A DNA stretch of 24,768 nucleotides from a virus (IMGVR_UViG_2778261381_000006:1-24768); one strand, 5' to 3'. Numbered from the stretch's first letter, positions 9,431 through 17,239 are shown. The notes: generated from the letters alone by a model not told the origin. Program-made: numbers and translations.

Positions 9431-11539
9431 TTACTTCAAAATGATACGAGATAGTTCAGTAACTACAGATGAACCAAGACTATCAACACTAGTTACCAGG
9501 GCATGATTTGCGTAAAATCTCTCCGGTGCATCAGTCATGATGCCAATTGCCATCAAATCAATGTCAGTCTGCGTTTCAATTTGCTTCGTAACCGAACGCA
9601 AATGGGCGTCAAAACCTCTCCCAACAGCCCACGGCGCGCCATCACTCAGAACAAGCATGATCTTCCTGTCCTCCAAGCGACCGGAAAATAACGATGCAAG
9701 GCTGGCTATGCTTTCACCATCCACGTTATTAAGAAGTGGGAATGTGTAGCCTACGCACCCCATACGTGAGCGAACTTCGCGAGAATTTGCTTTTTCATTC
9801 CAATTTTTGATGATAGGTAGCATTAAAGATTCAAAGCGAGAGAACTCATATTTGATAGCCTTAAGTTCTCCTGCTGCCATATGACTGCCAAATGTAGTGA
9901 AGCCGGTGATAATGTTGGGAACATTTATTCGATCAAGTGCATCGGCGATGGTATATGCACTTGCAAGAGCTAGTTTTATCGTTTCGCCACTCATTGAACC
10001 CGATAAATCAATCACTTGTTGAACACAGGCGTTAACGGCTTTAGATTCTTCTTTTTTACGAAACACGCGATCATCATTCATTGTTAATCTGTAGATACTT
10101 GAACCATGAATGCGCCCCCGACGCTGGCCAGGTATAAACTGAACTCTGTTTCTGCTTGCTATTGCACGTTCCAGGTCTTTTGCCAGCGTCGACGAAACAC
10201 CTGACGAAAGGTGCTTTTCAATATATTTGTCGAAGAGCTGGTTGCCTTCAGGAACGATGCGATAACGGCTGATTGGATATCCACCTAAATCAATATCGGA
10301 GAATGTTTTAATAAGCCGTTTGATATGGGCTTCTGCCTGATCAATCGAGCCGATGAAGTCGTATGAGCGATTGTATGGCCTGTATTCGCTTTTCGAGCTT
10401 TCTGTTAACTCGCTTTTAATCGTTTCGGATAGCGCATCTTCTGTCATGCCTCCGACTTCATCTTCCATGCTATCCAACTCCTCTAAAGCCTCTTCCAGAC
10501 TCATTTTTGACGGAGTTGGAATGTCTGAAGAGCCGTCTTCTGTCGATTTTCTTTTTTCGTGGTCAGTGGTAAATGATTCTGACGCCGCGTTATCAGAAGC
10601 ACCAGAATCTGATACCTCTTTATCATTTTCTGTATCATCGAATATTGTTTCTGATGATTCAGAATTATCTGAATCATCACTGTCGTTATTATCATGTTTG
10701 TACTTACTGTGTGATTCTGATTTGATAGATTTGTGATTATCTAACGCTGAGGGTGTCTCATGATCTTCGTTGTCTTCATTGTTTTCTCCAGAGGCATCCG
10801 TCTGGTCAGCGTCTGAAGGATCGGAAGTTTTTCCCGGAGCTGACTCCTTACCTTTGCTTTCACTTTCAGTGTCTTTGAGGATCTTAGCTATGGTCGCAGC
10901 CACCTTTACACAATCCTCGGTGCAAGACATGTTACGCACGGCCACATCGATACCATGTTCTTTTAATAATGAAATTGGTTTCTCAATGACAGGCCAATAT
11001 TCATCCATGAAATCTACGAACGGTGCTTGGCCATCCCAGGCTCTTACAACCGGACAGAGAAAGAAGTTTAGAAAAAGCGCGCGCTGATCTTTGCCACAAT
11101 AAGCAATAGCCTCTGAAGCCTTTGTTTTAAAGACTTTTTCGATTATAAGGCGCTGAGTTGCCATCAGATTACGTCTTGTTCCGTTAAAGACCTGACCCAT
11201 TTTTCGCTCGATGAACACGTCTTCTAAGGCATTCCATAGCGACCAGGAAGGAACGCGTCCTTTTTCTCTCATTTTGTTGGACACACGAATATCGGTAAAC
11301 AAAATGTGAGCAACCTCATGATCGAGAAATCCGCGCACAGCATTCATCAATGCCGGTGTTGCGTTATCCGGGATTGATGGGATGTTTACGAGAATTGGCT
11401 CTCCATCATCGTTATAGCGTACATAAGCGTCGTCCCCTCGTTCTGCAACAGGGATGTTTTTACCTGAAAGGAGAGCGACTACTCGTTTTACACTGTCACG
11501 GAAGTCCTGAACCTCTTTGATGGAACGTTTTTTAGACAT
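9431..11539 (-). CDS. vWA-domain protein (CobT-like) with N-terminal HExxH motif and acidic central linker
   Basis: C-terminal MIDAS-type motif VIDLSGSMSGET. About 150 residues of D/E/S-rich low-complexity linker. N-terminal FLDHEVAHILF (HExxH). AAGGA RBS before the ATG. Confidence 0.8.
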   Translation of the reverse strand: MSKKRSIKEVQDFRDSVKRVVALLSGKNIPVAERGDDAYVRYNDDGEPILVNIPSIPDNATPALMNAVRGFLDHEVAHILFTDIRVSNKMREKGRVPSWSLWNALEDVFIERKMGQVFNGTRRNLMATQRLIIEKVFKTKASEAIAYCGKDQRALFLNFFLCPVVRAWDGQAPFVDFMDEYWPVIEKPISLLKEHGIDVAVRNMSCTEDCVKVAATIAKILKDTESESKGKESAPGKTSDPSDADQTDASGENNEDNEDHETPSALDNHKSIKSESHSKYKHDNNDSDDSDNSESSETIFDDTENDKEVSDSGASDNAASESFTTDHEKRKSTEDGSSDIPTPSKMSLEEALEELDSMEDEVGGMTEDALSETIKSELTESSKSEYRPYNRSYDFIGSIDQAEAHIKRLIKTFSDIDLGGYPISRYRIVPEGNQLFDKYIEKHLSSGVSSTLAKDLERAIASRNRVQFIPGQRRGRIHGSSIYRLTMNDDRVFRKKEESKAVNACVQQVIDLSGSMSGETIKLALASAYTIADALDRINVPNIITGFTTFGSHMAAGELKAIKYEFSRFESLMLPIIKNWNEKANSREVRSRMGCVGYTFPLLNNVDGESIASLASLFSGRLEDRKIMLVLSDGAPWAVGRGFDAHLRSVTKQIETQTDIDLMAIGIMTDAPERFYANHALVTSVDSLGSSVVTELSRIILK

Positions 11540-11637
11540 GGCTAATCCTTTGTTATGAAAACAAATTATTTACTAGTGTGTTTAATGTAGCACTGCGCGA
11601 ACAGGGAACTAAGCCATTCGCGCAGGGAGAAGAGGGG

Positions 11638-11850
11638 TTAACAGATTCTGACGGCTAAAGACCCGGAGCCGGTATTGAGAAGCGTGAAGCGTTTGTTGTT
11701 AAGTTCGAATATAAAGCCAGTTGTGTCATTCACACCAACCTGAATCTGCTCATTCGGTAGATCGGTGAGGATGTCAGCTACACACTCATCAGCTAATTTC
11801 TGTACGTGTCCGATCTCAAGAGCGATTAGGCTGGAAATAGTGGTGTTCAT
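11638..11850 (-). CDS. Hypothetical small protein (70 aa)
   Basis: ORF only; weak RBS; no motif recognised. Confidence 0.3.
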   Translation of the reverse strand: MNTTISSLIALEIGHVQKLADECVADILTDLPNEQIQVGVNDTTGFIFELNNKRFTLLNTGSGSLAVRIC

Positions 11851-12101
11851 TCAATCAATCCATTCTAACTTATACTATGGTAAGGAATACTACTAAAATC
11901 TATATCAATACTGAATACATTCATATCATATGCAAGTTGATTTTCTTACCTGTTTTGGGCTAATTTTTCTCCGTGCAATGGCCTTTAACCGGTCTTTTAA
12001 GTGCCTATCGAAAAAAATGATAATAGCTTTACAACCCTAACCTTTGATGTAATATCGGTAAGCACTTACCAGAGAGAATTGAACGCGCAAAGGTTGTAAC
12101 C

Positions 12102-12488
12102 ATGTCTGATAACAAGATTGAATTTATAGAAAGTCGCTACGCTGCTTTTATCGCAGGGTTGATTGAATCCTCACCTATGAGCCAGGCCCAGATAGCCAAA
12201 ACAATTGGGTATAAAAACGCCAACAACCTTTCTTTAATTAAAAGCGGCAAAATTCCTTTGCCTATCGATAAGGTTCGTCCGCTGGCGCTGGCACTGGGCA
12301 TTGAGCCAAGTCGTCTTATGATGATGGTGCTGGAAGAACGCCAACCCGAACTCGCAGCATTTTTATACAAAGAAGGCACTGCTCCTCTTAACGAGGACGA
12401 AAAACAGGTTCTTGCTGCATATAACGAGCGATTCGGTAAAGAGAAAGGCGCATCACAAAAGGTTGTTGAGGCCATAAAGTCTCTATGA
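12102..12488 (+). CDS. HTH DNA-binding protein (XRE/Cro-like regulator)
   Basis: MSQAQIAKTIGYKNANNLSLIKSGKIPLPIDKVRPLALALGIEP is a helix-turn-helix pattern. A GGTAAGcaCTTACC palindrome lies 40 nt upstream. Convergent with the recombinase gene. Confidence 0.6.
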   Translation: MSDNKIEFIESRYAAFIAGLIESSPMSQAQIAKTIGYKNANNLSLIKSGKIPLPIDKVRPLALALGIEPSRLMMMVLEERQPELAAFLYKEGTAPLNEDEKQVLAAYNERFGKEKGASQKVVEAIKSL

Positions 12489-13586
12489 AAAATTTACACG
12501 AATAAGCTCTGTTGATAGACGATCTCCCTTAAATTTGTGGTCAATTTCGTCTAAATCCGGTTGCTCTACGATTGATGCGATGTACGTCGAGAAACTTTCT
12601 AAGGCGTCTCGCATCTCGTCCATATAATCGTGCCGGTCGTAGACCCGATCTATCCCCTCAAGACTGTGGTTCATGATTTTACGTGATACCTCCTGGCTTA
12701 TGCCTAATGCTGGGAAGTAACTACGCGCAGTACGGCGCAAATCTCGGGGTGTAAATGGCTCAAGCTCCATCAGTTCTGGTCGTTCCAGAATACGACGTAA
12801 TGCCTGGGCTATTGCCACTTTAGACATAGGAAGGTCTTTCCCGATTTTTTTATTCGAAGGCACGAGCCACTGGCTGTCTTTACCATATTCGAACAACTCT
12901 TCAATACAAGTGCGCATTAATGAGCTTAAAGGCAGAGAATGCTCACGGGCAGATTTGTTCCTCTTGCCTTGATTCCAAACCCCACGCTTAAGATTGAACT
13001 CACTTTTTTTAGCCCGCAGTACTTCGTCAGGTCGTCTTGCGGATACAAGACATAGCCTGGCCGCCCATTTTGTACCAGCGCACACATTGAAGTAGTCCCA
13101 TATATTCCAGAACACCCATACCTCTGCGTCGGTCAGCTTCCGCTCGCGAGGTGTGGGCTTTGCGCCACCGGCAACTTTGTTAAGTGACATATCGTTTAAC
13201 GGTGACACGTCTATCATCCCCTGGAAGGCGCACCAGCTAAGGAACTGCTTCATCAGAGAGAAAACGCGGCGGCCCATAACAATTTTGCCATCCAGTATTA
13301 GTGGGTTGACCAGTTGGTTCACCATGAACCTATTAATGTCACTTACTTTTACATCGGCAATGTGCGGCAAAACATGTATCAAAATACAATGAACAGCGAT
13401 CTCTGGCCGACGTCTGGTTATCAGCAGAGATAAGCGAGTGAATAACATGAATGCGTCCGAGAATCTCATGTCATTGCTGACCTGGGAGATCATAACGGCC
13501 TGCATTTGAGATGCTCTTTCGAGATACTCTATCGCCTCTTTTGAGGTGTTCTCCGCAGCGCGTGCTCTGTCAAAGCTATTTTTCAT
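12483..13586 (-). CDS. Tyrosine site-specific recombinase (integrase family)
   Basis: Catalytic blocks: ARLCLVSARRPDEVL (Arg I), PRDLRRTARSYF (box II region), NHSLEGIDRVYDRHDY with the nucleophile Tyr. GGTGA RBS before the ATG. Confidence 0.85.
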   Translation of the reverse strand: MKNSFDRARAAENTSKEAIEYLERASQMQAVMISQVSNDMRFSDAFMLFTRLSLLITRRRPEIAVHCILIHVLPHIADVKVSDINRFMVNQLVNPLILDGKIVMGRRVFSLMKQFLSWCAFQGMIDVSPLNDMSLNKVAGGAKPTPRERKLTDAEVWVFWNIWDYFNVCAGTKWAARLCLVSARRPDEVLRAKKSEFNLKRGVWNQGKRNKSAREHSLPLSSLMRTCIEELFEYGKDSQWLVPSNKKIGKDLPMSKVAIAQALRRILERPELMELEPFTPRDLRRTARSYFPALGISQEVSRKIMNHSLEGIDRVYDRHDYMDEMRDALESFSTYIASIVEQPDLDEIDHKFKGDRLSTELIRVNFS

Positions 13587-13613
13587 ATGACAATCACCGA
13601 GTTACGCCGATGC

Positions 13614-13660
13614 ACTGTATAAGTAAACAGTATATTAGGCATAGATTCTTATAGGATCAA
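13614..13660 (-). promoter_or_regulatory. Sigma70 promoter for the recombinase with an overlapping LexA-box-like site
   Basis: On the minus strand: TTGATC (-35, plus 13655-13660), 17-bp spacer, TAATAT (-10, plus 13632-13637). Then CTGTATAAGTAAACAG (plus 13615-13630), which fits CTGT-N8-ACAG, between the -10 and the start codon. Confidence 0.5.
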
Positions 13661-13684
13661 GAGTAAAAGTAACTCATTTTCAGC

Positions 13685-13717
13685 AATGATTCCATACATA
13701 GTAGGTATGGAATCATT
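13685..13717. repeat. Perfect 13-bp inverted repeat with 7-bp spacer (AATGATTCCATAC-ATAGTAG-GTATGGAATCATT)
   Basis: Exact reverse-complement arms at 13685-13697 and 13705-13717, about 25 bp upstream of the recombinase -35. The architecture matches tyrosine-recombinase core sites such as loxP and FRT. Confidence 0.7.
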
Positions 13718-13762
13718 TAGCCGTTGTTTTTTGAATTTTAAGGGAACCAAGCGTGAGTTTGG

Positions 13763-13792
13763 TGGGAACAAAAACGGCTCCTGTGAGCCGTT
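13763..13792 (-). terminator. Intrinsic terminator after the glutaredoxin gene
   Basis: Stem aacggctc / gagccgtt (loop ctgt) followed on the minus strand by TTTTTGTT. Confidence 0.55.
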
Positions 13793-13796
13793 AAAA

Positions 13797-14042
13797 TTAG
13801 AGAGTGGTGACGTATGCAGCCAGTTCTGTGTATCCGCCAATCGGTTGGCCATCGATCAGTACCTGGGGGATAGTCTCTACCGGTTTGCCAACAATTTCGC
13901 TAAGTTTTTCCTTATCGATACCGGCAGTGGTGATGTCGATGTACTCATAATCACCATAGCCGTGTCCCTTTAGTTGTTTCGCCAGCTCGACCGCACGTTT
14001 GCAATATGAGCAGTTATCTCGTCCGTAGATAACGATAGTCAT
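13797..14042 (-). CDS. Glutaredoxin (GrxA-like, CxxC thiol-disulfide oxidoreductase)
   Basis: Active site CSYC near the N-terminus; GKPVETIPQVLIDGQPIGGYTELAAYV closely matches E. coli glutaredoxin 1. Confidence 0.85.
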   Translation of the reverse strand: MTIVIYGRDNCSYCKRAVELAKQLKGHGYGDYEYIDITTAGIDKEKLSEIVGKPVETIPQVLIDGQPIGGYTELAAYVTTL

Positions 14043-14181
14043 GTTTACCTCATAATAATTATGTGTTACTTAACCAGAAAATAAATATTACTATAAAAGA
14101 TAGGTAAGTAAAAACCTATTTAATGTCTGCAATACATCGTAAACTTGCCTGTTAATCACAACTTAATTTAGTTAATATTTA

Positions 14182-15510
14182 ATGCAACTAACAATGGTAA
14201 GTACGAGAGCATACATGCCTGTTTTTATTTCTGTTGCAATTCTAATGTTTTCCATAATAATTTTGTTTTTAGGTTTACTACTTGAGCCATTTCAAGATTG
14301 GAAGGTTACAGACCAAATTGCTGTATTGAGTAGTTTTATAACGACAGCGGCTTTTTGTGCAACAGCGTGGAACGCCTATGAAGCAAGAAAAAGTGCAAAG
14401 GCAGCACTGGAGGCCGTTAGGATAACTACCGATTCATTGATTGAGATGAGAAAAAATTCTTTCAAAGAATGGTTTGACACTTTATTAAATCAGCATGATG
14501 AGTTGTACAATAATGTCATACCAATCATTGAACAGACAAAAAAACAATTTAATAAAAATGAAATGCATTCGTTTTTTTATCCATTGGTAAGAAAGCATGA
14601 GGTTATTCAGTACATAAAACATATTACCAATATATTAGTCTATGTAGATAACCGATTTTACATAGATGGAAATTGTTTTGATGAAAAAATGGAATATATT
14701 ATTCAATTGAGTGGAAAAATACCACCGCAAATGAAGTTGGTTATTGCAGTTTTTGGATTGGACATCGATTCTCGTGAACCGCAGGATTCAAAAAAACTGT
14801 ATGCTTTATTAAATAAATATGATTTTTTCAAAGATGAAATATTCTTTGATGATGCTTATTCAAGCATGCCTGAAGTAGAGCTATTTATAAAGGATAGATT
14901 TGATAAAATATTTAAAACCAAGATGTTAAAATACTTTTGGAACGTGATTAAGGAATATTATTCTCAAGTTGAAGTCAAAGAAATCTGGGTGGTTCGTCGT
15001 CCGCAAGTTGCTTCATCGGTATTAATGAACTACCAAACACCATTATCTGGTTTAATTGATGATTATTTTAAAAATTTGCCAAATGAGGTAAAGAGCATTT
15101 TTGATGAAGCACTAAAAAAAGCTAATGATAGTGTTACGTCTATTGATGACTATATTCATCGTTTGATCGGTTGCAGAGTCGCGTCGATTTCAGAGCATGT
15201 CCATTTCGAAAGTGAAATACTGAGTAGTGAAAAGGATGTGAAGGATATGATTAAAAATTACATAGAGCAAAGAAAAACTGGAAAAAATGCGGTAAATCTT
15301 GGGCAGTTATATTTCTCGAGTGAGTCAGATGTAATTACAGGTGATCAGTTGAGTGATGCGATCGATGAATATGAGAAAAAGTTGGCACTTATGGCAATAA
15401 ACGATAATGATGATAGTGATAACCTATTGTGCCATATCTATATTAAATCATGTGAGATAGTTGATGAATATAAGCGTGAAACATTAAAATTGGGCGAGTA
15501 CGCACAATAG
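14182..15510 (+). CDS. Membrane-anchored protein of unknown function (2 N-terminal TM helices plus ~380-aa soluble domain); candidate exclusion or abortive-infection factor
   Basis: Markedly AT-rich relative to flanks. Hydrophobic segments MPVFISVAILMFSIIILFLGLLL and IAVLSSFITTAAFCATAW. No catalytic motif recognised. True start may be ATG 14215 (weak GAGAG RBS). Confidence 0.65.
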   Translation: MQLTMVSTRAYMPVFISVAILMFSIIILFLGLLLEPFQDWKVTDQIAVLSSFITTAAFCATAWNAYEARKSAKAALEAVRITTDSLIEMRKNSFKEWFDTLLNQHDELYNNVIPIIEQTKKQFNKNEMHSFFYPLVRKHEVIQYIKHITNILVYVDNRFYIDGNCFDEKMEYIIQLSGKIPPQMKLVIAVFGLDIDSREPQDSKKLYALLNKYDFFKDEIFFDDAYSSMPEVELFIKDRFDKIFKTKMLKYFWNVIKEYYSQVEVKEIWVVRRPQVASSVLMNYQTPLSGLIDDYFKNLPNEVKSIFDEALKKANDSVTSIDDYIHRLIGCRVASISEHVHFESEILSSEKDVKDMIKNYIEQRKTGKNAVNLGQLYFSSESDVITGDQLSDAIDEYEKKLALMAINDNDDSDNLLCHIYIKSCEIVDEYKRETLKLGEYAQ

Positions 15511-15523
15511 GTTGTGCAGATTC

Positions 15524-15551
15524 GAAGCCTCTTTAAATTTTGCGCTGAAAA
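15524..15551. repeat. Direct repeat copy 1 (gaagcctctttaaattttgcgctgaaaa)
   Basis: About 28 bp matching 16445-16474 with 2 mismatches; the two copies flank the lipoprotein gene. Confidence 0.6.
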
Positions 15552-15588
15552 TTGTTATTTTACGGTAAGTAACGCTGTTTTCAGCGCA
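15541..15588. other. Large hairpin in the convergent gap (11-bp stem tgcgctgaaaa / ttttcagcgca, 26-nt loop containing a GGTAAGTA motif)
   Basis: Exact 11-bp inverted repeat; the loop contains ttacggtaagtaacg. Confidence 0.5.
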
Positions 15589-15761
15589 TAAATGTCAGTG
15601 AATAATTTGATGCTTGCTGTAACGATGGTACGCTACGTAAAATCCGATATTTATGAGACTGATTGCAGGTAAGGACTTACATAGCGCACAAAAATTGCTG
15701 ATACCAGATGCAATATATGTTTAATGTCAAATTTTAGATAGGGGCGTATACGCCCCTGTCA

Positions 15762-16316
15762 TTATTTTATTTTATCTTCTTCTAAACGAGAAAATTTAAA
15801 TTGTTTATCGGTGATGGTGAGTAGTGTTACACCTTCCTTTTCGTGTAAAAGACCGGCACCGTTTGACACCATAATCAATCTATCCTTCCCTCGAAAGATT
15901 TCATAATATTTACCAGCTCCACAAGTTTTAGTTTCAATACAGTCCATGCCAGATACTGCTTCTCTGTTAAAAACACGATCTTTTGTAGCAACGGGTTTTC
16001 CGTACTCCTTTGTCAGCATTTCACTTATCTGGATGAATGTATACTTACCAACATTACTGGTTAATGACATTTCGACTTTTCCGTCGATCAGGTTGCCATT
16101 CGTATGCGGTTCTTTTTCAGTCGGACTATTTTTATCTTGAAGAATAAACACTTCAACATTTTGTGTTAGCTTCTTGAATTGGGCTTTATAATTTTGTTCA
16201 AGTTCACTTTTATCTTTGCCTATTAACGTTAATTCATCTATTTCAGATTCGTTACACCCTGTTAGTGTTAACGCAATTATTAGAGATGCGAAAATATTGA
16301 GATGGCACTTCTTCAT
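15762..16316 (-). CDS. Lipoprotein of unknown function
   Basis: Signal peptide with lipobox LTLTG-C (MKKCHLNIFASLIIALTLTGC). GGAGA RBS. AT-rich. Confidence 0.7.
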   Translation of the reverse strand: MKKCHLNIFASLIIALTLTGCNESEIDELTLIGKDKSELEQNYKAQFKKLTQNVEVFILQDKNSPTEKEPHTNGNLIDGKVEMSLTSNVGKYTFIQISEMLTKEYGKPVATKDRVFNREAVSGMDCIETKTCGAGKYYEIFRGKDRLIMVSNGAGLLHEKEGVTLLTITDKQFKFSRLEEDKIK

Positions 16317-16430
16317 TAATTTGTCTCCATGTTTAACTGCTGCGATCTAATCAGGAACATGAAGGCAGTCTAACGCTGCCTCGGATCAAAGCGATAAAAC
16401 GATACGTGAATATAACTAAGTGTCAACAAA

Positions 16431-16474
16431 TCAAAAAAGGGGCCGAAGCCCCTTTGAATTTTGCGCTGAAAAAA
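16431..16474. terminator. Bidirectional intrinsic terminator plus direct repeat copy 2
   Basis: Stem aaaggggc / gccccttt (loop cgaa) at 16436-16455, flanked by an A-tract upstream and T-tract downstream. Sits downstream of the minus-strand tRNA cluster. Confidence 0.65.
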
Positions 16475-16609
16475 GTGTTGCTAGGATGTTAGCAAGCTAT
16501 GGTTAAGAACGTCTGCCGTAATTGTCTATCACAGCGTTGAGCGGTCTGGTTTATGTTAGCGGAGTCTTAATCTGGTTGATTAAAAGGCCAAACCGCTCAA
16601 CGCTGTGTC

Positions 16610-16696
16610 TGGCGGAGAGTAATGGAATCGAACCATCATCGTTTGCACAATGGGACGGTTTTCAAGACCGCTTGAGCACCATGCTCCCTACTCTCC
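16610..16696 (-). tRNA. tRNA-Ser (anticodon UGA), type II with long variable arm
   Basis: Manual fold: acceptor GGAGAGU/ACUCUCC, anticodon stem-loop GCGGU-CUUGAAA-ACCGU, T-arm GAUGG-UUCGAUU-CCAUU, encoded CCA. The D-arm is irregular. Confidence 0.7.
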
Positions 16697-16990
16697 AATT
16701 GTGTTGTGTGCTCCGTTTCGTGGAGCTAACGGCGGGTGATCAGACCGCACCAGGTTGGACGTATTTCAGCGTTATGCTGTTGCAAGAGAGCCAAATTGTG
16801 ATGGCCGGTGCTGATCTCCGGCATTGCCTACGTTAGCGGCCTTCAGGCAGTTCATCCGCTTGCTTCTACGTCGCACATCAGCCTGTGCATTCACCACAAT
16901 GTTGAGAACACTGGTTGTCACGCTGCAACGCAACATTATATTCATAAATTGGGATATGAACCCGTTACGCCAATGTTCTCAATATTATGT

Positions 16991-17066
16991 TGGTGCCGGT
17001 TAACGGACTTGAACCGCTGGCCATTTGCTTACAAAGCGACTGCTCTACCAACTGAGCTAAACCGGC
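16991..17066 (-). tRNA. tRNA-Thr (anticodon UGU), anticodon stem with two mismatches
   Basis: Acceptor GCCGGUU/AACCGGC, D-arm GCUC-AGUUGGUA-GAGC, T-arm AGCGG-UUCAAGU-CCGUU, encoded CCA. Anticodon loop UUUGUAA, but the stem GUCGC/GCAAA pairs at only 3 of 5 positions. Confidence 0.5.
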
Positions 17067-17070
17067 AATT

Positions 17071-17157
17071 TGGTGGGGAGTGATGGAGTCGAACCACCCG
17101 AGTCGCAATGACAGTAGATTTACAGTCTACACCGCTACCTCTACGGACTAACTCCCC
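17071..17157 (-). tRNA. tRNA-Tyr (anticodon GUA), type II
   Basis: Acceptor GGGGAGU/ACUCCCC, anticodon arm GUAGA-CUGUAAA-UCUAC, T-arm GGUGG-UUCGACU-CCAUC, long variable arm, encoded CCA. Confidence 0.7.
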
Positions 17158-17162
17158 TAAAT

Positions 17163-17237
17163 TGGCGATGGTGGGTGGATTCGAACCACCGACCAGTTGG
17201 TTAACAGCCAACTGCTCTACCGCTGAGCTACACCATC
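17163..17237 (-). tRNA. tRNA-Asn (anticodon GUU)
   Basis: Canonical cloverleaf: acceptor GAUGGUG/CACCAUC, D-arm GCUC-AGCGGUA-GAGC, anticodon arm GUUGG-CUGUUAA-CCAAC, T-arm GGUGG-UUCGAAU-CCACC, encoded CCA. Confidence 0.8.
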
Positions 17238-17239
17238 AA

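What the first reader, a model, noticed from the sequence alone, without database searches (positions are those of the whole stretch)
15524..16474. Lipoprotein gene bracketed by ~28-bp direct repeats and hairpins
The repeats gaagcc(t/c)cttt(a/g)aattttgcgctgaaaa at 15524-15551 and 16445-16474 flank the 184-aa lipoprotein gene. One copy is fused to a bidirectional terminator, the other adjoins a long hairpin. This looks like the footprint of a recombination-mediated moron insertion. Phage-encoded lipoproteins often block a receptor for superinfection exclusion.
Basis: partly seen in the sequence, partly recalled or inferred. Interest (0 to 1): 0.4.

Follow-up and report, generated by a model that had tools for sequence, protein, structure and literature searches.

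The report
Recombination scar beside a phage-plasmid lipoprotein gene
The two 29-bp repeats are real: one is the conserved edge of an accessory-gene hotspot in an SSU5/pHCM2-like E. coli phage-plasmid, and the other is a decayed copy of that edge left behind when two alternative cargo cassettes were stacked, which is an ordinary kind of phage mosaicism.

Summary
A 29-nt direct repeat (27/29) lies at 15523-15551 and 16444-16472. It brackets a 184-aa lipoprotein gene and occurs nowhere else in the 112-kb genome.

The window is an SSU5/pHCM2-like phage-plasmid of E. coli. The stretch between grxA and the tRNA-Ser operon is a cargo hotspot: 389-4255 bp and at least 12 architectures in relatives.

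The right repeat is part of the hotspot's conserved edge, the tRNA-operon terminator plus 17 nt. That edge is found in about 650 plasmids across four genera.

The left repeat is the vestigial terminator and edge of the neighbouring AT-rich AbiC-like gene. In relatives, two other alleles of that gene stop 9-21 nt before an intact, single copy of the edge and carry no lipoprotein.

The lipoprotein unit has its own promoter, terminator and low GC (moron-like). It is present in only 17-24% of relatives. Where present it always abuts the same edge, and in pHCM2-type genomes it sits inside a longer co-directional array.

The repeats are therefore best read as the scar of non-allelic recombination that stacked two cassettes. 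They are not a transposition or att footprint.

The lipoprotein's function is unknown, and superinfection exclusion is untested. A third, inverted copy forms an unexplained 57-nt quasi-palindrome. Overall the finding is ordinary and of modest interest.

The parts
15523..15551 (.). Left copy of the 29-nt repeat. It is the vestigial loop, 3' stem and T-run of a terminator plus 17 nt. It starts 12 nt after the stop codon of the AbiC-like gene. The 5' stem is deleted and there are 2 substitutions.
   Evidence: the alignment of the 420-aa allele runs through to 15551 in 37 plasmids
16444..16472 (.). Right copy of the repeat. It is part of the conserved edge of the cargo hotspot.
   Evidence: conserved at 91-100% in about 650 plasmids of Escherichia, Klebsiella, Enterobacter and Salmonella
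16433..16455 (-). Intrinsic terminator (A6-GGGGC-CGAA-GCCCC-T3) ending the tRNA operon. Every cargo variant breaks homology at its A-run.
15537..15593 (+). A 57-nt quasi-palindrome with a 24-bp stem and 6-nt loop. Its 5' arm contains the end of the left repeat.
   Evidence: fold; I5
15568..15591 (-). Third, inverted partial copy of the edge sequence (reverse complement of 16459-16482, 20/24 matches).
   Evidence: I1; score 34 against a maximum of 31 in 200 shuffles
15552..15736 (.). Spacer X of unknown origin. It is found only in genomes with this same arrangement.
15737..15760 (.). Bidirectional terminator shared by the convergent AbiC-like and lipoprotein genes. A similar hairpin follows the gene in IncY (P1-like) plasmids.
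15762..16316 (-). 184-aa lipoprotein gene (phrog_15156). It has a signal peptide, the lipobox LTGC, Asn at +2, and two invariant Cys in the mature part.
16399..16426 (-). Predicted sigma-70 promoter of the lipoprotein gene (TTGACA-16 nt-TATCGT), directly abutting the edge terminator. The L002-type allele has TTGACT at the corresponding place.
   Evidence: sequence
14182..15510 (+). AT-rich 442-aa ORF (431 aa from the RefSeq start at 14215). Read by eye, it has a hydrophobic N-terminal segment. It is a distant relative of putAbiC (PF16872) proteins. The left repeat is its former 3' flank.
14043..16432 (.). The variable cargo region of the hotspot in this genome, lying between the grxA start and the edge terminator.
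16530..16607 (-). Conserved 20-bp hairpin immediately 3' of tRNA-Ser (16610-16696). It is part of the conserved backbone to the right of the repeat.

Best explanation
The window is an SSU5/pHCM2-like phage-plasmid. Its grxA-to-tRNA-Ser interval is a hotspot where alternative accessory cassettes are exchanged by recombination between co-resident relatives.

The right edge of the hotspot is fixed: the terminator of the tRNA operon plus the next 20 or so nucleotides. In the ancestor of the AT-rich AbiC-like gene found here, that gene ended just before this edge, as its 420-aa and 438-aa alleles still do.

A non-allelic (illegitimate or very short-homology) crossover then joined this genome, just after ...GCGCTGAAAA, to a relative whose lipoprotein unit (promoter, gene, terminator) abutted its own copy of the edge. 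The product carries both cassettes and two copies of the edge.

The inner (left) copy was freed from its terminator role. It has lost its 5' stem and picked up two substitutions. The outer (right) copy remains the working terminator.

Shown: the repeat, the hotspot, the conserved edge, presence and absence of the gene, and continuity of the left copy with the 3' flank of the AbiC-like gene. Inferred: the crossover itself and the order of events.

The lipoprotein is predicted to be an outer-membrane-anchored periplasmic protein, expressed from its own promoter in the plasmid (lysogenic) state. A cell-envelope role such as exclusion of other phages is the most likely guess, but it is only a guess.
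For: Identity of the element:
- The window is 100% identical over 7 kb to E. coli plasmids p19KM1803_1 and MF554642.
- It is related to phage Cyrano, CMS-2020a, SSU5 and pHCM2.

Hotspot:
- In 80 IMG/VR relatives the grxA-to-edge interval is 389-4255 bp, with at least 12 gene architectures.
- At least 9 different left junctions all end at the A-run of the same terminator.

Single copy in relatives:
- L002, L003, L004 and 36 other loci have exactly one copy of the repeat, the right one.

The left copy belongs to the AbiC-like gene:
- The 420-aa allele is about 67% identical in nucleotides. Its alignment runs from inside the gene to window position 15551 in 37 of 37 plasmids.
- The 3'-flank alignment shows a deletion of about 15 nt that removes the A-run and 5' stem.
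- The 438-aa allele also stops 9 nt before an intact edge.

The junction of the lipoprotein with the edge predates the arrangement:
- The same junction, with a conserved -35 element, is seen with an 80%-identical allele in L002 and in L049, both without a left copy.

Ongoing homologous exchange:
- L045 and L046 keep the left repeat, the hairpin and spacer X, but have an L002-type 5' half of the lipoprotein gene.

Rarity:
- Spacer X occurs in 5 of 5426 E. coli genomes and in 3 plasmids.

A second, independent duplication of the edge terminator brackets a module of about 480 nt in pHCM2-type relatives.

The cargo is AT-rich: 33-35% GC against 44-49% in the backbone.
Against: - No parent genome carrying the window's own AbiC-like allele followed by an intact single edge was found. 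All 3 plasmids and 5 E. coli genomes with this allele already carry the lipoprotein.
- The donor context of spacer X is unknown.
- The simple crossover model does not explain the inverted third copy, which makes a 57-nt quasi-palindrome exactly at the junction.
- The 14 nt TTTTGCGCTGAAAA are perfectly preserved in the left copy, which could indicate function rather than a neutral scar.
- The promoter and both terminators are consensus predictions only.
Confidence: 0.7

Rival explanations
1. The 921-bp unit is a miniature integrative cassette. It would have been inserted by site-specific recombination, catalysed in trans by the nearby tyrosine recombinase (12483-13586). The two 29-mers would then be attL and attR, as for islands that integrate next to tRNA genes.
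For: - Direct repeats flank a small AT-rich unit about 140 nt from the 3' end of a tRNA-Ser gene.
- A Phage_integrase-family gene lies about 2 kb away.
- Relatives show an apparent empty site with one copy.
- There is a palindromic structure at the left end.
Against: - The lipoprotein unit abuts the same edge in L002-type and L049 genomes with no left copy.
- At least 12 other cargo architectures break at the terminator A-run, not at the repeat.
- Only two lineages among about 58 loci show any duplication of the edge, and they duplicate different parts of it.
- The left copy continues the 3' flank of the neighbouring gene.
- The integrase is conserved backbone. It has its own 33-nt palindrome at 13685-13717, which is a more natural target.
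Confidence: 0.06
2. The left copy is kept by selection as a working element rather than being a neutral scar. Together with its inverted partner it forms a 24-bp RNA hairpin in the 3' UTR of the AbiC-like mRNA. That hairpin could act as a stabiliser or an RNase III site, replacing the lost terminator. The resemblance to the edge would then reflect reuse of a pre-existing motif.
For: - The 14 nt inside the stem are perfectly conserved, while the former terminator stem has decayed.
- Two G-U pairs keep the stem intact only on the + strand RNA. The - strand fold loses the inner stem.
- The hairpin is identical in the 97-98% diverged carriers L007 and L045.
Against: - The folding z-score is only -2.0.
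- There is no U-tract after the stem.
- No sequence variation among carriers is available to test covariation.
- This reading explains why the copy persists, not why it exists. It is compatible with the scar model rather than an alternative to its origin.
Confidence: 0.15
3. The repeats are a transposition footprint (target-site duplication), or they are chance similarity between two terminators.
For: Direct repeats flank a single gene.
Against: - 29 nt is far longer than known target-site duplications.
- There is no transposase and there are no terminal inverted repeats at the insert ends.
- Chance is excluded: 0 of 100 shuffles gave a match, and the genome holds only these two copies.
- The shared part extends 17 nt beyond the terminator hairpin.
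Confidence: 0.02

Closest known systems
Morons of lambdoid phages (e.g. HK97 gene 15; lambda bor and lom), as defined in PMC3594210
   Same: It is a single accessory gene with its own predicted promoter and terminator. Its GC content is lower than that of its neighbours. It is present in some relatives and absent from others, and it sits in a temperate element.
   Different: It lies in a dedicated multi-cassette hotspot of a phage-plasmid, not between two structural genes. In pHCM2-type relatives the same gene has no terminator of its own and is part of a co-directional array. Expression in the lysogen was not shown.
Accessory and defence-gene hotspots of temperate phages and phage-plasmids. 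These are variable regions flanked by conserved genes. Variable repertoires in SSU5-group phage-plasmids are described in PMC7969092, and resistance-gene insertions near their tRNA loci in bioRxiv 10.1101/2025.09.12.675607.
   Same: The flanks are fixed (grxA and the tRNA operon). Many alternative cargoes occur there, including candidate defence genes: AbiC-like, an HNH protein matching PDC-M68A, Gp49/YafO-type toxins, and ISEcp1-blaCTX-M in some relatives.
   Different: I found no description of this particular hotspot, of its terminator edge, or of the edge-duplication scars in the papers searched.
Superinfection-exclusion lipoproteins (T5 Llp; Cor of phi80, N15 and HK022; Ltp of S. thermophilus phages). 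This comparison rests on my own knowledge plus PMC3952083 and PMC3594210.
   Same: It is a small lipoprotein encoded by a temperate element and predicted to be expressed independently.
   Different: No sequence or fold similarity to any annotated family was detected. At 164 mature residues it is larger than Llp or Cor. No phenotype is known.
attL/attR repeats of tRNA-associated integrative elements
   Same: Short direct repeats flank AT-rich cargo near the 3' side of a tRNA gene, with a tyrosine recombinase nearby.
   Different: The repeat lies outside the tRNA. Carriers of the same gene exist without the left copy. The left copy is continuous with the neighbouring gene's own 3' flank.

Membership tests
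Moron (independent accessory transcription unit in a temperate phage) | Own promoter | tested here: met
   The best sigma-70 consensus match in 13900-17400 is TTGACA-16-TATCGT at 16426-16399 on the gene's strand. The -35 element is conserved in the L002 allele. This is a prediction only.
Moron (independent accessory transcription unit in a temperate phage) | Own terminator | tested here: met
   A GC-rich hairpin at 15737-15760 lies directly after the stop codon. A similar hairpin follows the gene in IncY plasmids. It is absent in pHCM2, where another gene follows.
Moron (independent accessory transcription unit in a temperate phage) | Present in some close relatives and absent from others | tested here: met
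   Present in 108 of about 650 plasmids that carry the edge, and in 14 of about 58 IMG/VR loci.
Moron (independent accessory transcription unit in a temperate phage) | Base composition differs from neighbours | tested here: met
   35.0% GC against 44-49% for backbone genes.
Moron (independent accessory transcription unit in a temperate phage) | Expressed from the repressed prophage or plasmid state | not testable with these tools
   Needs RNA-seq or a reporter assay.
Bacterial lipoprotein | Signal peptide ending in a lipobox [LVI][ASTVI][GAS]C | tested here: met
   The N-terminus reads MKKCHLNIFASLIIALTLTG|C. L18, T19, G20 and C21 are invariant in 14 homologues. Processing by Lgt and LspA is not testable here.
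Known superinfection-exclusion lipoproteins (Llp, Cor, Ltp, TraT) | Sequence or fold similarity to a characterised member | tested here: inconclusive
   - No hit in Pfam, NCBIfam, PADLOC or PDB sequences, and only unannotated PHROGs families.
- A profile search of 1.8 billion representatives found one full-length family plus one 171-aa distant relative.
- No direct pairwise comparison with Llp or Cor was done.
Site-specific integrative cassette (attL/attR) | Every carrier of the element has both flanking att copies, and empty sites have one | tested here: not met
   L002-type, L049 and pHCM2-type carriers of the lipoprotein have no left copy.
Transposable element with target-site duplication | Transposase and/or terminal inverted repeats, with a short target-site duplication | tested here: not met
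   There is no transposase ORF and no terminal inverted repeats between the repeats. The repeat is 29 nt long.
putAbiC (PF16872) abortive-infection proteins (for the neighbouring 442-aa gene) | Match to the Pfam model above its threshold | tested here: not met
   The window protein has no Pfam hit. It is linked only through a 28%-identical homologue, P0037, which itself matches PF16872 (28 bits against a cutoff of 22). PADLOC gives no hit.

The most novel reading that the evidence does not exclude
The terminator edge of this hotspot may be more than a passive boundary. It could be a recurrent short-homology 'linker' through which SSU5-group phage-plasmids assemble and stack accessory and defence cassettes. 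Each addition would leave a decaying terminator copy. Two independent examples are seen here: the window type and the pHCM2 type. The quasi-palindrome at the junction would then record a template-switch or fold-back step in that process. The strongly conserved 175-nt tail of the tRNA operon that contains the repeat might also be a processed small RNA.
Probability: 0.15. Interest if true: 0.45.

Novelty: new member of a known kind. Interest (0 to 1): 0.25.

Why it matters
It pins down, to the nucleotide, one edge of an accessory and defence-gene hotspot in the SSU5/pHCM2 group of phage-plasmids. These elements are common in clinical E. coli, Salmonella and Klebsiella, and relatives carry blaCTX-M in the same few kilobases. 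The analysis shows how two alternative cassettes became stacked.

That gives a simple marker, the conserved edge sequence, for cataloguing cargo in these elements. It also yields two uncharacterised candidates for phage-resistance testing: the lipoprotein family phrog_15156 and an allelic series of AbiC-like proteins.

The repeat itself is an ordinary recombination scar and does not reveal a new mechanism.

Tried and rejected
**Lipoprotein function.** All of the following were uninformative:
- Pfam, PHROGs, PADLOC, NCBIfam and PDB sequence searches.
- A profile search of 1.8 billion representatives. The extra hits were low-complexity C/G/Y repeat proteins.
- Two AlphaFold runs, both with pLDDT 50-54.
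- The afdb50 library was unavailable.

**Link to P1 Plp.** Plp is a 'putative lipoprotein' next to the P1 tRNA genes. I rejected the link: there is no significant similarity (E = 0.35). The P1 homology lies in the tRNA-Ser/Thr spacer at 16708-17006.

**Origin of spacer X (15552-15736).** There are no matches in phages, plasmids or E. coli genomes outside the same arrangement. There is no similarity to the flanks of the gene in IncY plasmids or pHCM2. Only ORFs of 26 aa or fewer lie there.

**Other checks.**
- Rfam gave nothing above threshold in 13500-18000 except the four tRNAs.
- By eye, integron attC and XerCD/dif-like readings of the palindrome do not fit. The core motifs are not matched (R'/R'' boxes; XerD arm 4/11). 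I dropped these without a formal scan.
- The literature search found no description of this hotspot.

Full report
**1. The observation**

The region contains a 29-nt direct repeat, CGAAGCC(T/C)CTTT(A/G)AATTTTGCGCTGAAAA, at 15523-15551 and 16444-16472. It matches at 27 of 29 positions and the copies are 921 nt apart. Allowing 3 mismatches, there are only these two matches in the window, and none in 100 dinucleotide shuffles.

I rebuilt the complete 112,650-bp genome of a relative that is 100% identical over window 11500-18500 (NZ_CP151018). There the 29-mer occurs only at these two places, with one inverted partial copy beside the left one. Only two GGGGC-N-GCCCC hairpins exist in the whole genome, and both lie in this locus.

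Between the repeats lies a 184-aa ORF at 15762-16316 on the - strand. It has a classical lipoprotein signal, MKKCHLNIFASLIIALTLTG|C, and the LTGC lipobox is invariant in 14 homologues.

The right copy begins in the loop of a terminator hairpin: A-run 16433-16438, GGGGC-CGAA-GCCCC 16439-16452, TTT 16453-16455. The left copy forms the 5' arm of a 24-bp hairpin at 15537-15593. The description is correct apart from a 2-nt overrun of the right copy.

**2. What the sequence is**

The window belongs to an SSU5/pHCM2-like phage-plasmid of E. coli.
- It is 100% identical over 7 kb to plasmid p19KM1803_1 and to MF554642.
- It is 93-98% identical in the backbone to hundreds of non-mobilizable plasmids of about 110 kb.
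- It is related to phages Cyrano, CMS-2020a and SSU5.

The local gene order is as follows:
- CobT-like gene
- HTH regulator
- tyrosine recombinase (12483-13586)
- grxA (13797-14042)
- a 442-aa ORF on the + strand (14182-15510)
- the lipoprotein gene on the - strand
- a tRNA operon, Asn-Tyr-Thr-Ser, on the - strand (17237-16610)
- DNA ligase

**3. The interval is a cargo hotspot with a fixed right edge**

Annotated relatives differ exactly between grxA and tRNA-Ser.
- LR882992 carries a PhoH fragment, a 262-aa gene and an 80%-identical lipoprotein allele.
- CP103659 carries only a 420-aa homologue of the 442-aa gene.
- CP081707 carries only a Gp49-family gene.
- pHCM2 and a Citrobacter plasmid carry a long co-directional array: 242-aa gene, lipoprotein, (263-aa gene, absent from the Citrobacter plasmid), phoH, small gene, gp49, grxA.

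In 80 IMG/VR relatives recovered through GrxA, the distance from grxA to the edge ranges from 389 to 4255 bp. There are at least a dozen gene architectures.

Every one of these relatives has exactly one copy of the repeat, the right one. At least nine different left-hand junction sequences all end at the A-run of the same terminator, AAAAAAGGGGCCGAAGCCCCTTTGAATTTTGCGCTGAAAA.

This edge is conserved at 91-100% in about 650 PLSDB plasmids from Escherichia, Klebsiella, Enterobacter and Salmonella. On the - strand it is the end of the tRNA operon transcript. The order there is tRNA-Ser, a 20-bp hairpin (z = -6.6), a smaller hairpin, the repeat motif, and then the terminator.

**4. Where the left copy comes from**

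The 442-aa gene has a 420-aa allele that is about 67% identical in nucleotides and 55-56% in protein. This allele is present in 37 plasmids. In every one of them the alignment with the window runs from inside the gene to window position 15551, the last base of the left repeat.

In those genomes the stop codon is followed after 21 nt by the intact edge terminator and then tRNA-Ser, with no lipoprotein. A third allele (438 aa, 34% identical) sits at the same place in another lineage and stops 9 nt before the intact edge.

An alignment of the three 3' flanks shows what the window's left copy is. It is this same flank with about 15 nt deleted (the A-run and the 5' stem) and two substitutions, one of them in the 3' stem. 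The left repeat is therefore the vestigial terminator and edge of the 442-aa gene cassette.

**5. Status of the lipoprotein unit**

It has the anatomy of a moron as defined in PMC3594210.
- The best sigma-70 consensus match of the region, TTGACA-16-TATCGT at 16426-16399, lies on its strand, directly next to the edge terminator.
- Its own terminator at 15737-15760 lies right after the stop codon.
- Its GC content is 35%, against 44-49% in backbone genes.

It is accessory. tblastn finds it in 108 plasmids, against about 650 that carry the edge. It is in 14 of about 58 IMG/VR loci with a detectable edge. It also occurs, with a similar terminator, in IncY (P1-like) plasmids in a different context.

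However, in the SSU5-group relatives examined that carry it, it lies at the tRNA-side end of the cargo. It abuts the edge directly, except in full pHCM2-type arrays, where the 242-aa gene lies between.
- The junction, including the -35 element, is shared with the 80%-diverged L002 allele and with L049. Both lack a left repeat.
- In pHCM2-type arrays it has no terminator of its own.

So the gene was at this edge before the arrangement seen in the window arose.

**6. Most likely history**

A single non-allelic crossover explains the arrangement. It would have occurred between two co-resident variants: grxA-[AbiC-like gene]-edge-tRNA, and grxA-[...]-[lipoprotein]-edge-tRNA. The join was made just after ...GCGCTGAAAA in the first variant and about 185 nt downstream of the lipoprotein terminator in the second.

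This crossover yields exactly what is seen: both cassettes, two copies of the edge, the inner one decaying. Whether one calls this insertion of the lipoprotein or insertion of the AbiC-like gene is a matter of viewpoint.

Three further observations fit this picture.
- Exchange continues. Logan contigs L045 and L046 keep the left repeat, the hairpin and spacer X, but carry an L002-type 5' half of the lipoprotein gene and promoter. That is a crossover inside the gene.
- The arrangement is rare. Spacer X is in 5 of 5426 complete E. coli genomes and 3 PLSDB plasmids, always in this same layout.
- A second, independent duplication of the edge exists. In pHCM2-type relatives the full terminator hairpin is repeated about 480 nt away (88-100% identity). 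It brackets a small module with a 33-aa hydrophobic ORF. Cassette addition that leaves a spare terminator copy has therefore happened at least twice at this hotspot.

The longest perfect match between the two window copies is 16 nt. From general knowledge this is below the roughly 25-nt length needed for efficient RecA recombination. That fits the stability of the arrangement in isolates from a cat, a gull and humans.

**7. What remains unexplained**

Bases 15568-15591 are an inverted copy of the edge (the reverse complement of 16459-16482, 20 of 24 matches). It reaches 10 nt beyond the direct repeat. It turns the junction into a 57-nt quasi-palindrome (I1 and I5). Chance is unlikely: the local alignment scores 34, against a maximum of 31 in 200 shuffles.

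Two origins are possible. One is a template switch or fold-back at the small hairpin of the edge while the junction formed. The other is later selection for a 3' RNA hairpin after the gene lost its terminator. Two G-U pairs keep the stem intact only on the + strand, which fits the second idea. There is no variation among carriers with which to test either.

Spacer X (15552-15736) has no detectable relative outside this arrangement.

**8. Rivals**

Site-specific integration by the nearby tyrosine recombinase is attractive on paper, given direct repeats near a tRNA gene. It fails a defining test: other carriers of the lipoprotein lack the left copy. In addition, all other cargo variants break at the terminator A-run, not at the repeat. 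Transposition and chance are excluded. A functional role for the left hairpin is possible, but it is compatible with the scar origin.

**9. Function of the lipoprotein**

The predicted features are a signal peptide with a lipobox and Asn at +2. By the +2 rule, from general knowledge, that implies sorting to the outer membrane. There are also two invariant cysteines in the mature part.

The family is tiny and confined to enterobacterial phage-plasmids. It has 16 clusters at 61-99% identity, one representative at the 50% level among 1.8 billion proteins, and one 171-aa distant relative. There is no annotated family, no defence-system model and no solved relative. The structure models were of low confidence, so the fold matches are meaningless.

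Superinfection exclusion remains a reasonable guess, because the neighbours are candidate defence genes.
- The 442-aa protein is distantly related to a putAbiC-domain protein.
- The 263-aa neighbour in pHCM2 arrays matches PADLOC PDC-M68A and HNH effectors at 1e-23.

Nothing here tests the exclusion idea directly.

**10. Verdict**

The repeat is the hotspot's own edge, duplicated by cassette stacking, and is not a signature carried by the insert. This is a new, well-resolved example of a known kind of phage mosaicism. Interest is modest.

Noticed in passing
window 13685-13717: A 33-nt near-perfect palindrome lies between the tyrosine recombinase gene and grxA. It is conserved in all relatives examined, showing up as a reverse self-hit at about 91%. 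It is a plausible lox- or dif-like target of the recombinase, for example for plasmid dimer resolution.
   Followed up: no
window 14182-15510: The 442-aa AT-rich ORF (32.7% GC; hydrophobic N-terminus, read by eye) belongs to a family with at least four very divergent allelic classes (99, 56, 34 and 31% identity). Three of these occupy the same hotspot position in different phage-plasmids. A 28%-identical homologue carries the putAbiC domain PF16872, so this is a candidate abortive-infection gene.
   Followed up: partly
window 16530-16607: A 20-bp hairpin sits immediately 3' of tRNA-Ser (z = -6.6). The pHCM2 version differs at two stem positions by compensatory double changes (T-A to C-G, and G-C to A-T), so the structure is under selection. 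It may be a processing site or part of a 3'-trailer RNA.
   Followed up: partly
window 16708-17006: The spacer between tRNA-Ser and tRNA-Thr is 82% identical to the P1 region annotated as upl and plp ('putative lipoprotein'). P1 Plp is unrelated to the window's lipoprotein. The tblastn matches are split over different frames, which suggests conservation of the DNA or RNA rather than of those P1 ORFs.
   Followed up: partly
L039 (pHCM2) 2104-2616; also L079, L080, L095, L108: A second copy of the edge terminator lies about 480 nt away. It brackets a small module containing another terminator and a 33-aa hydrophobic ORF (MSEMLTTFIQAPLLSQVLTVLALYLLFRCQQNK). There are sub-threshold Rfam hits to antisense and antitoxin RNAs. 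This may be a type I toxin-antitoxin module.
   Followed up: partly
L039 4096-4887 (pHCM2 263-aa gene next to the lipoprotein): It matches PADLOC candidate defence protein PDC-M68A (E about 1e-23) and HNH endonuclease effectors of CBASS-type systems. The 67-aa gene in the same array matches Pfam PF21825.
   Followed up: no
L045, L046 (Logan contigs): These carry a mosaic lipoprotein allele. The 3' half is identical to the window type. The 5' half and promoter are of the L002 type. This is direct evidence for homologous exchange inside the gene.
   Followed up: yes
relatives NZ_CP104844, NZ_CP047004, NZ_AP039430 and others: ISEcp1-blaCTX-M-55/179 insertions lie within the same 7-kb integrase-to-tRNA region in related phage-plasmids. 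This agrees with a report that resistance genes in SSU5-group elements insert near tRNA loci (bioRxiv 10.1101/2025.09.12.675607).
   Followed up: no
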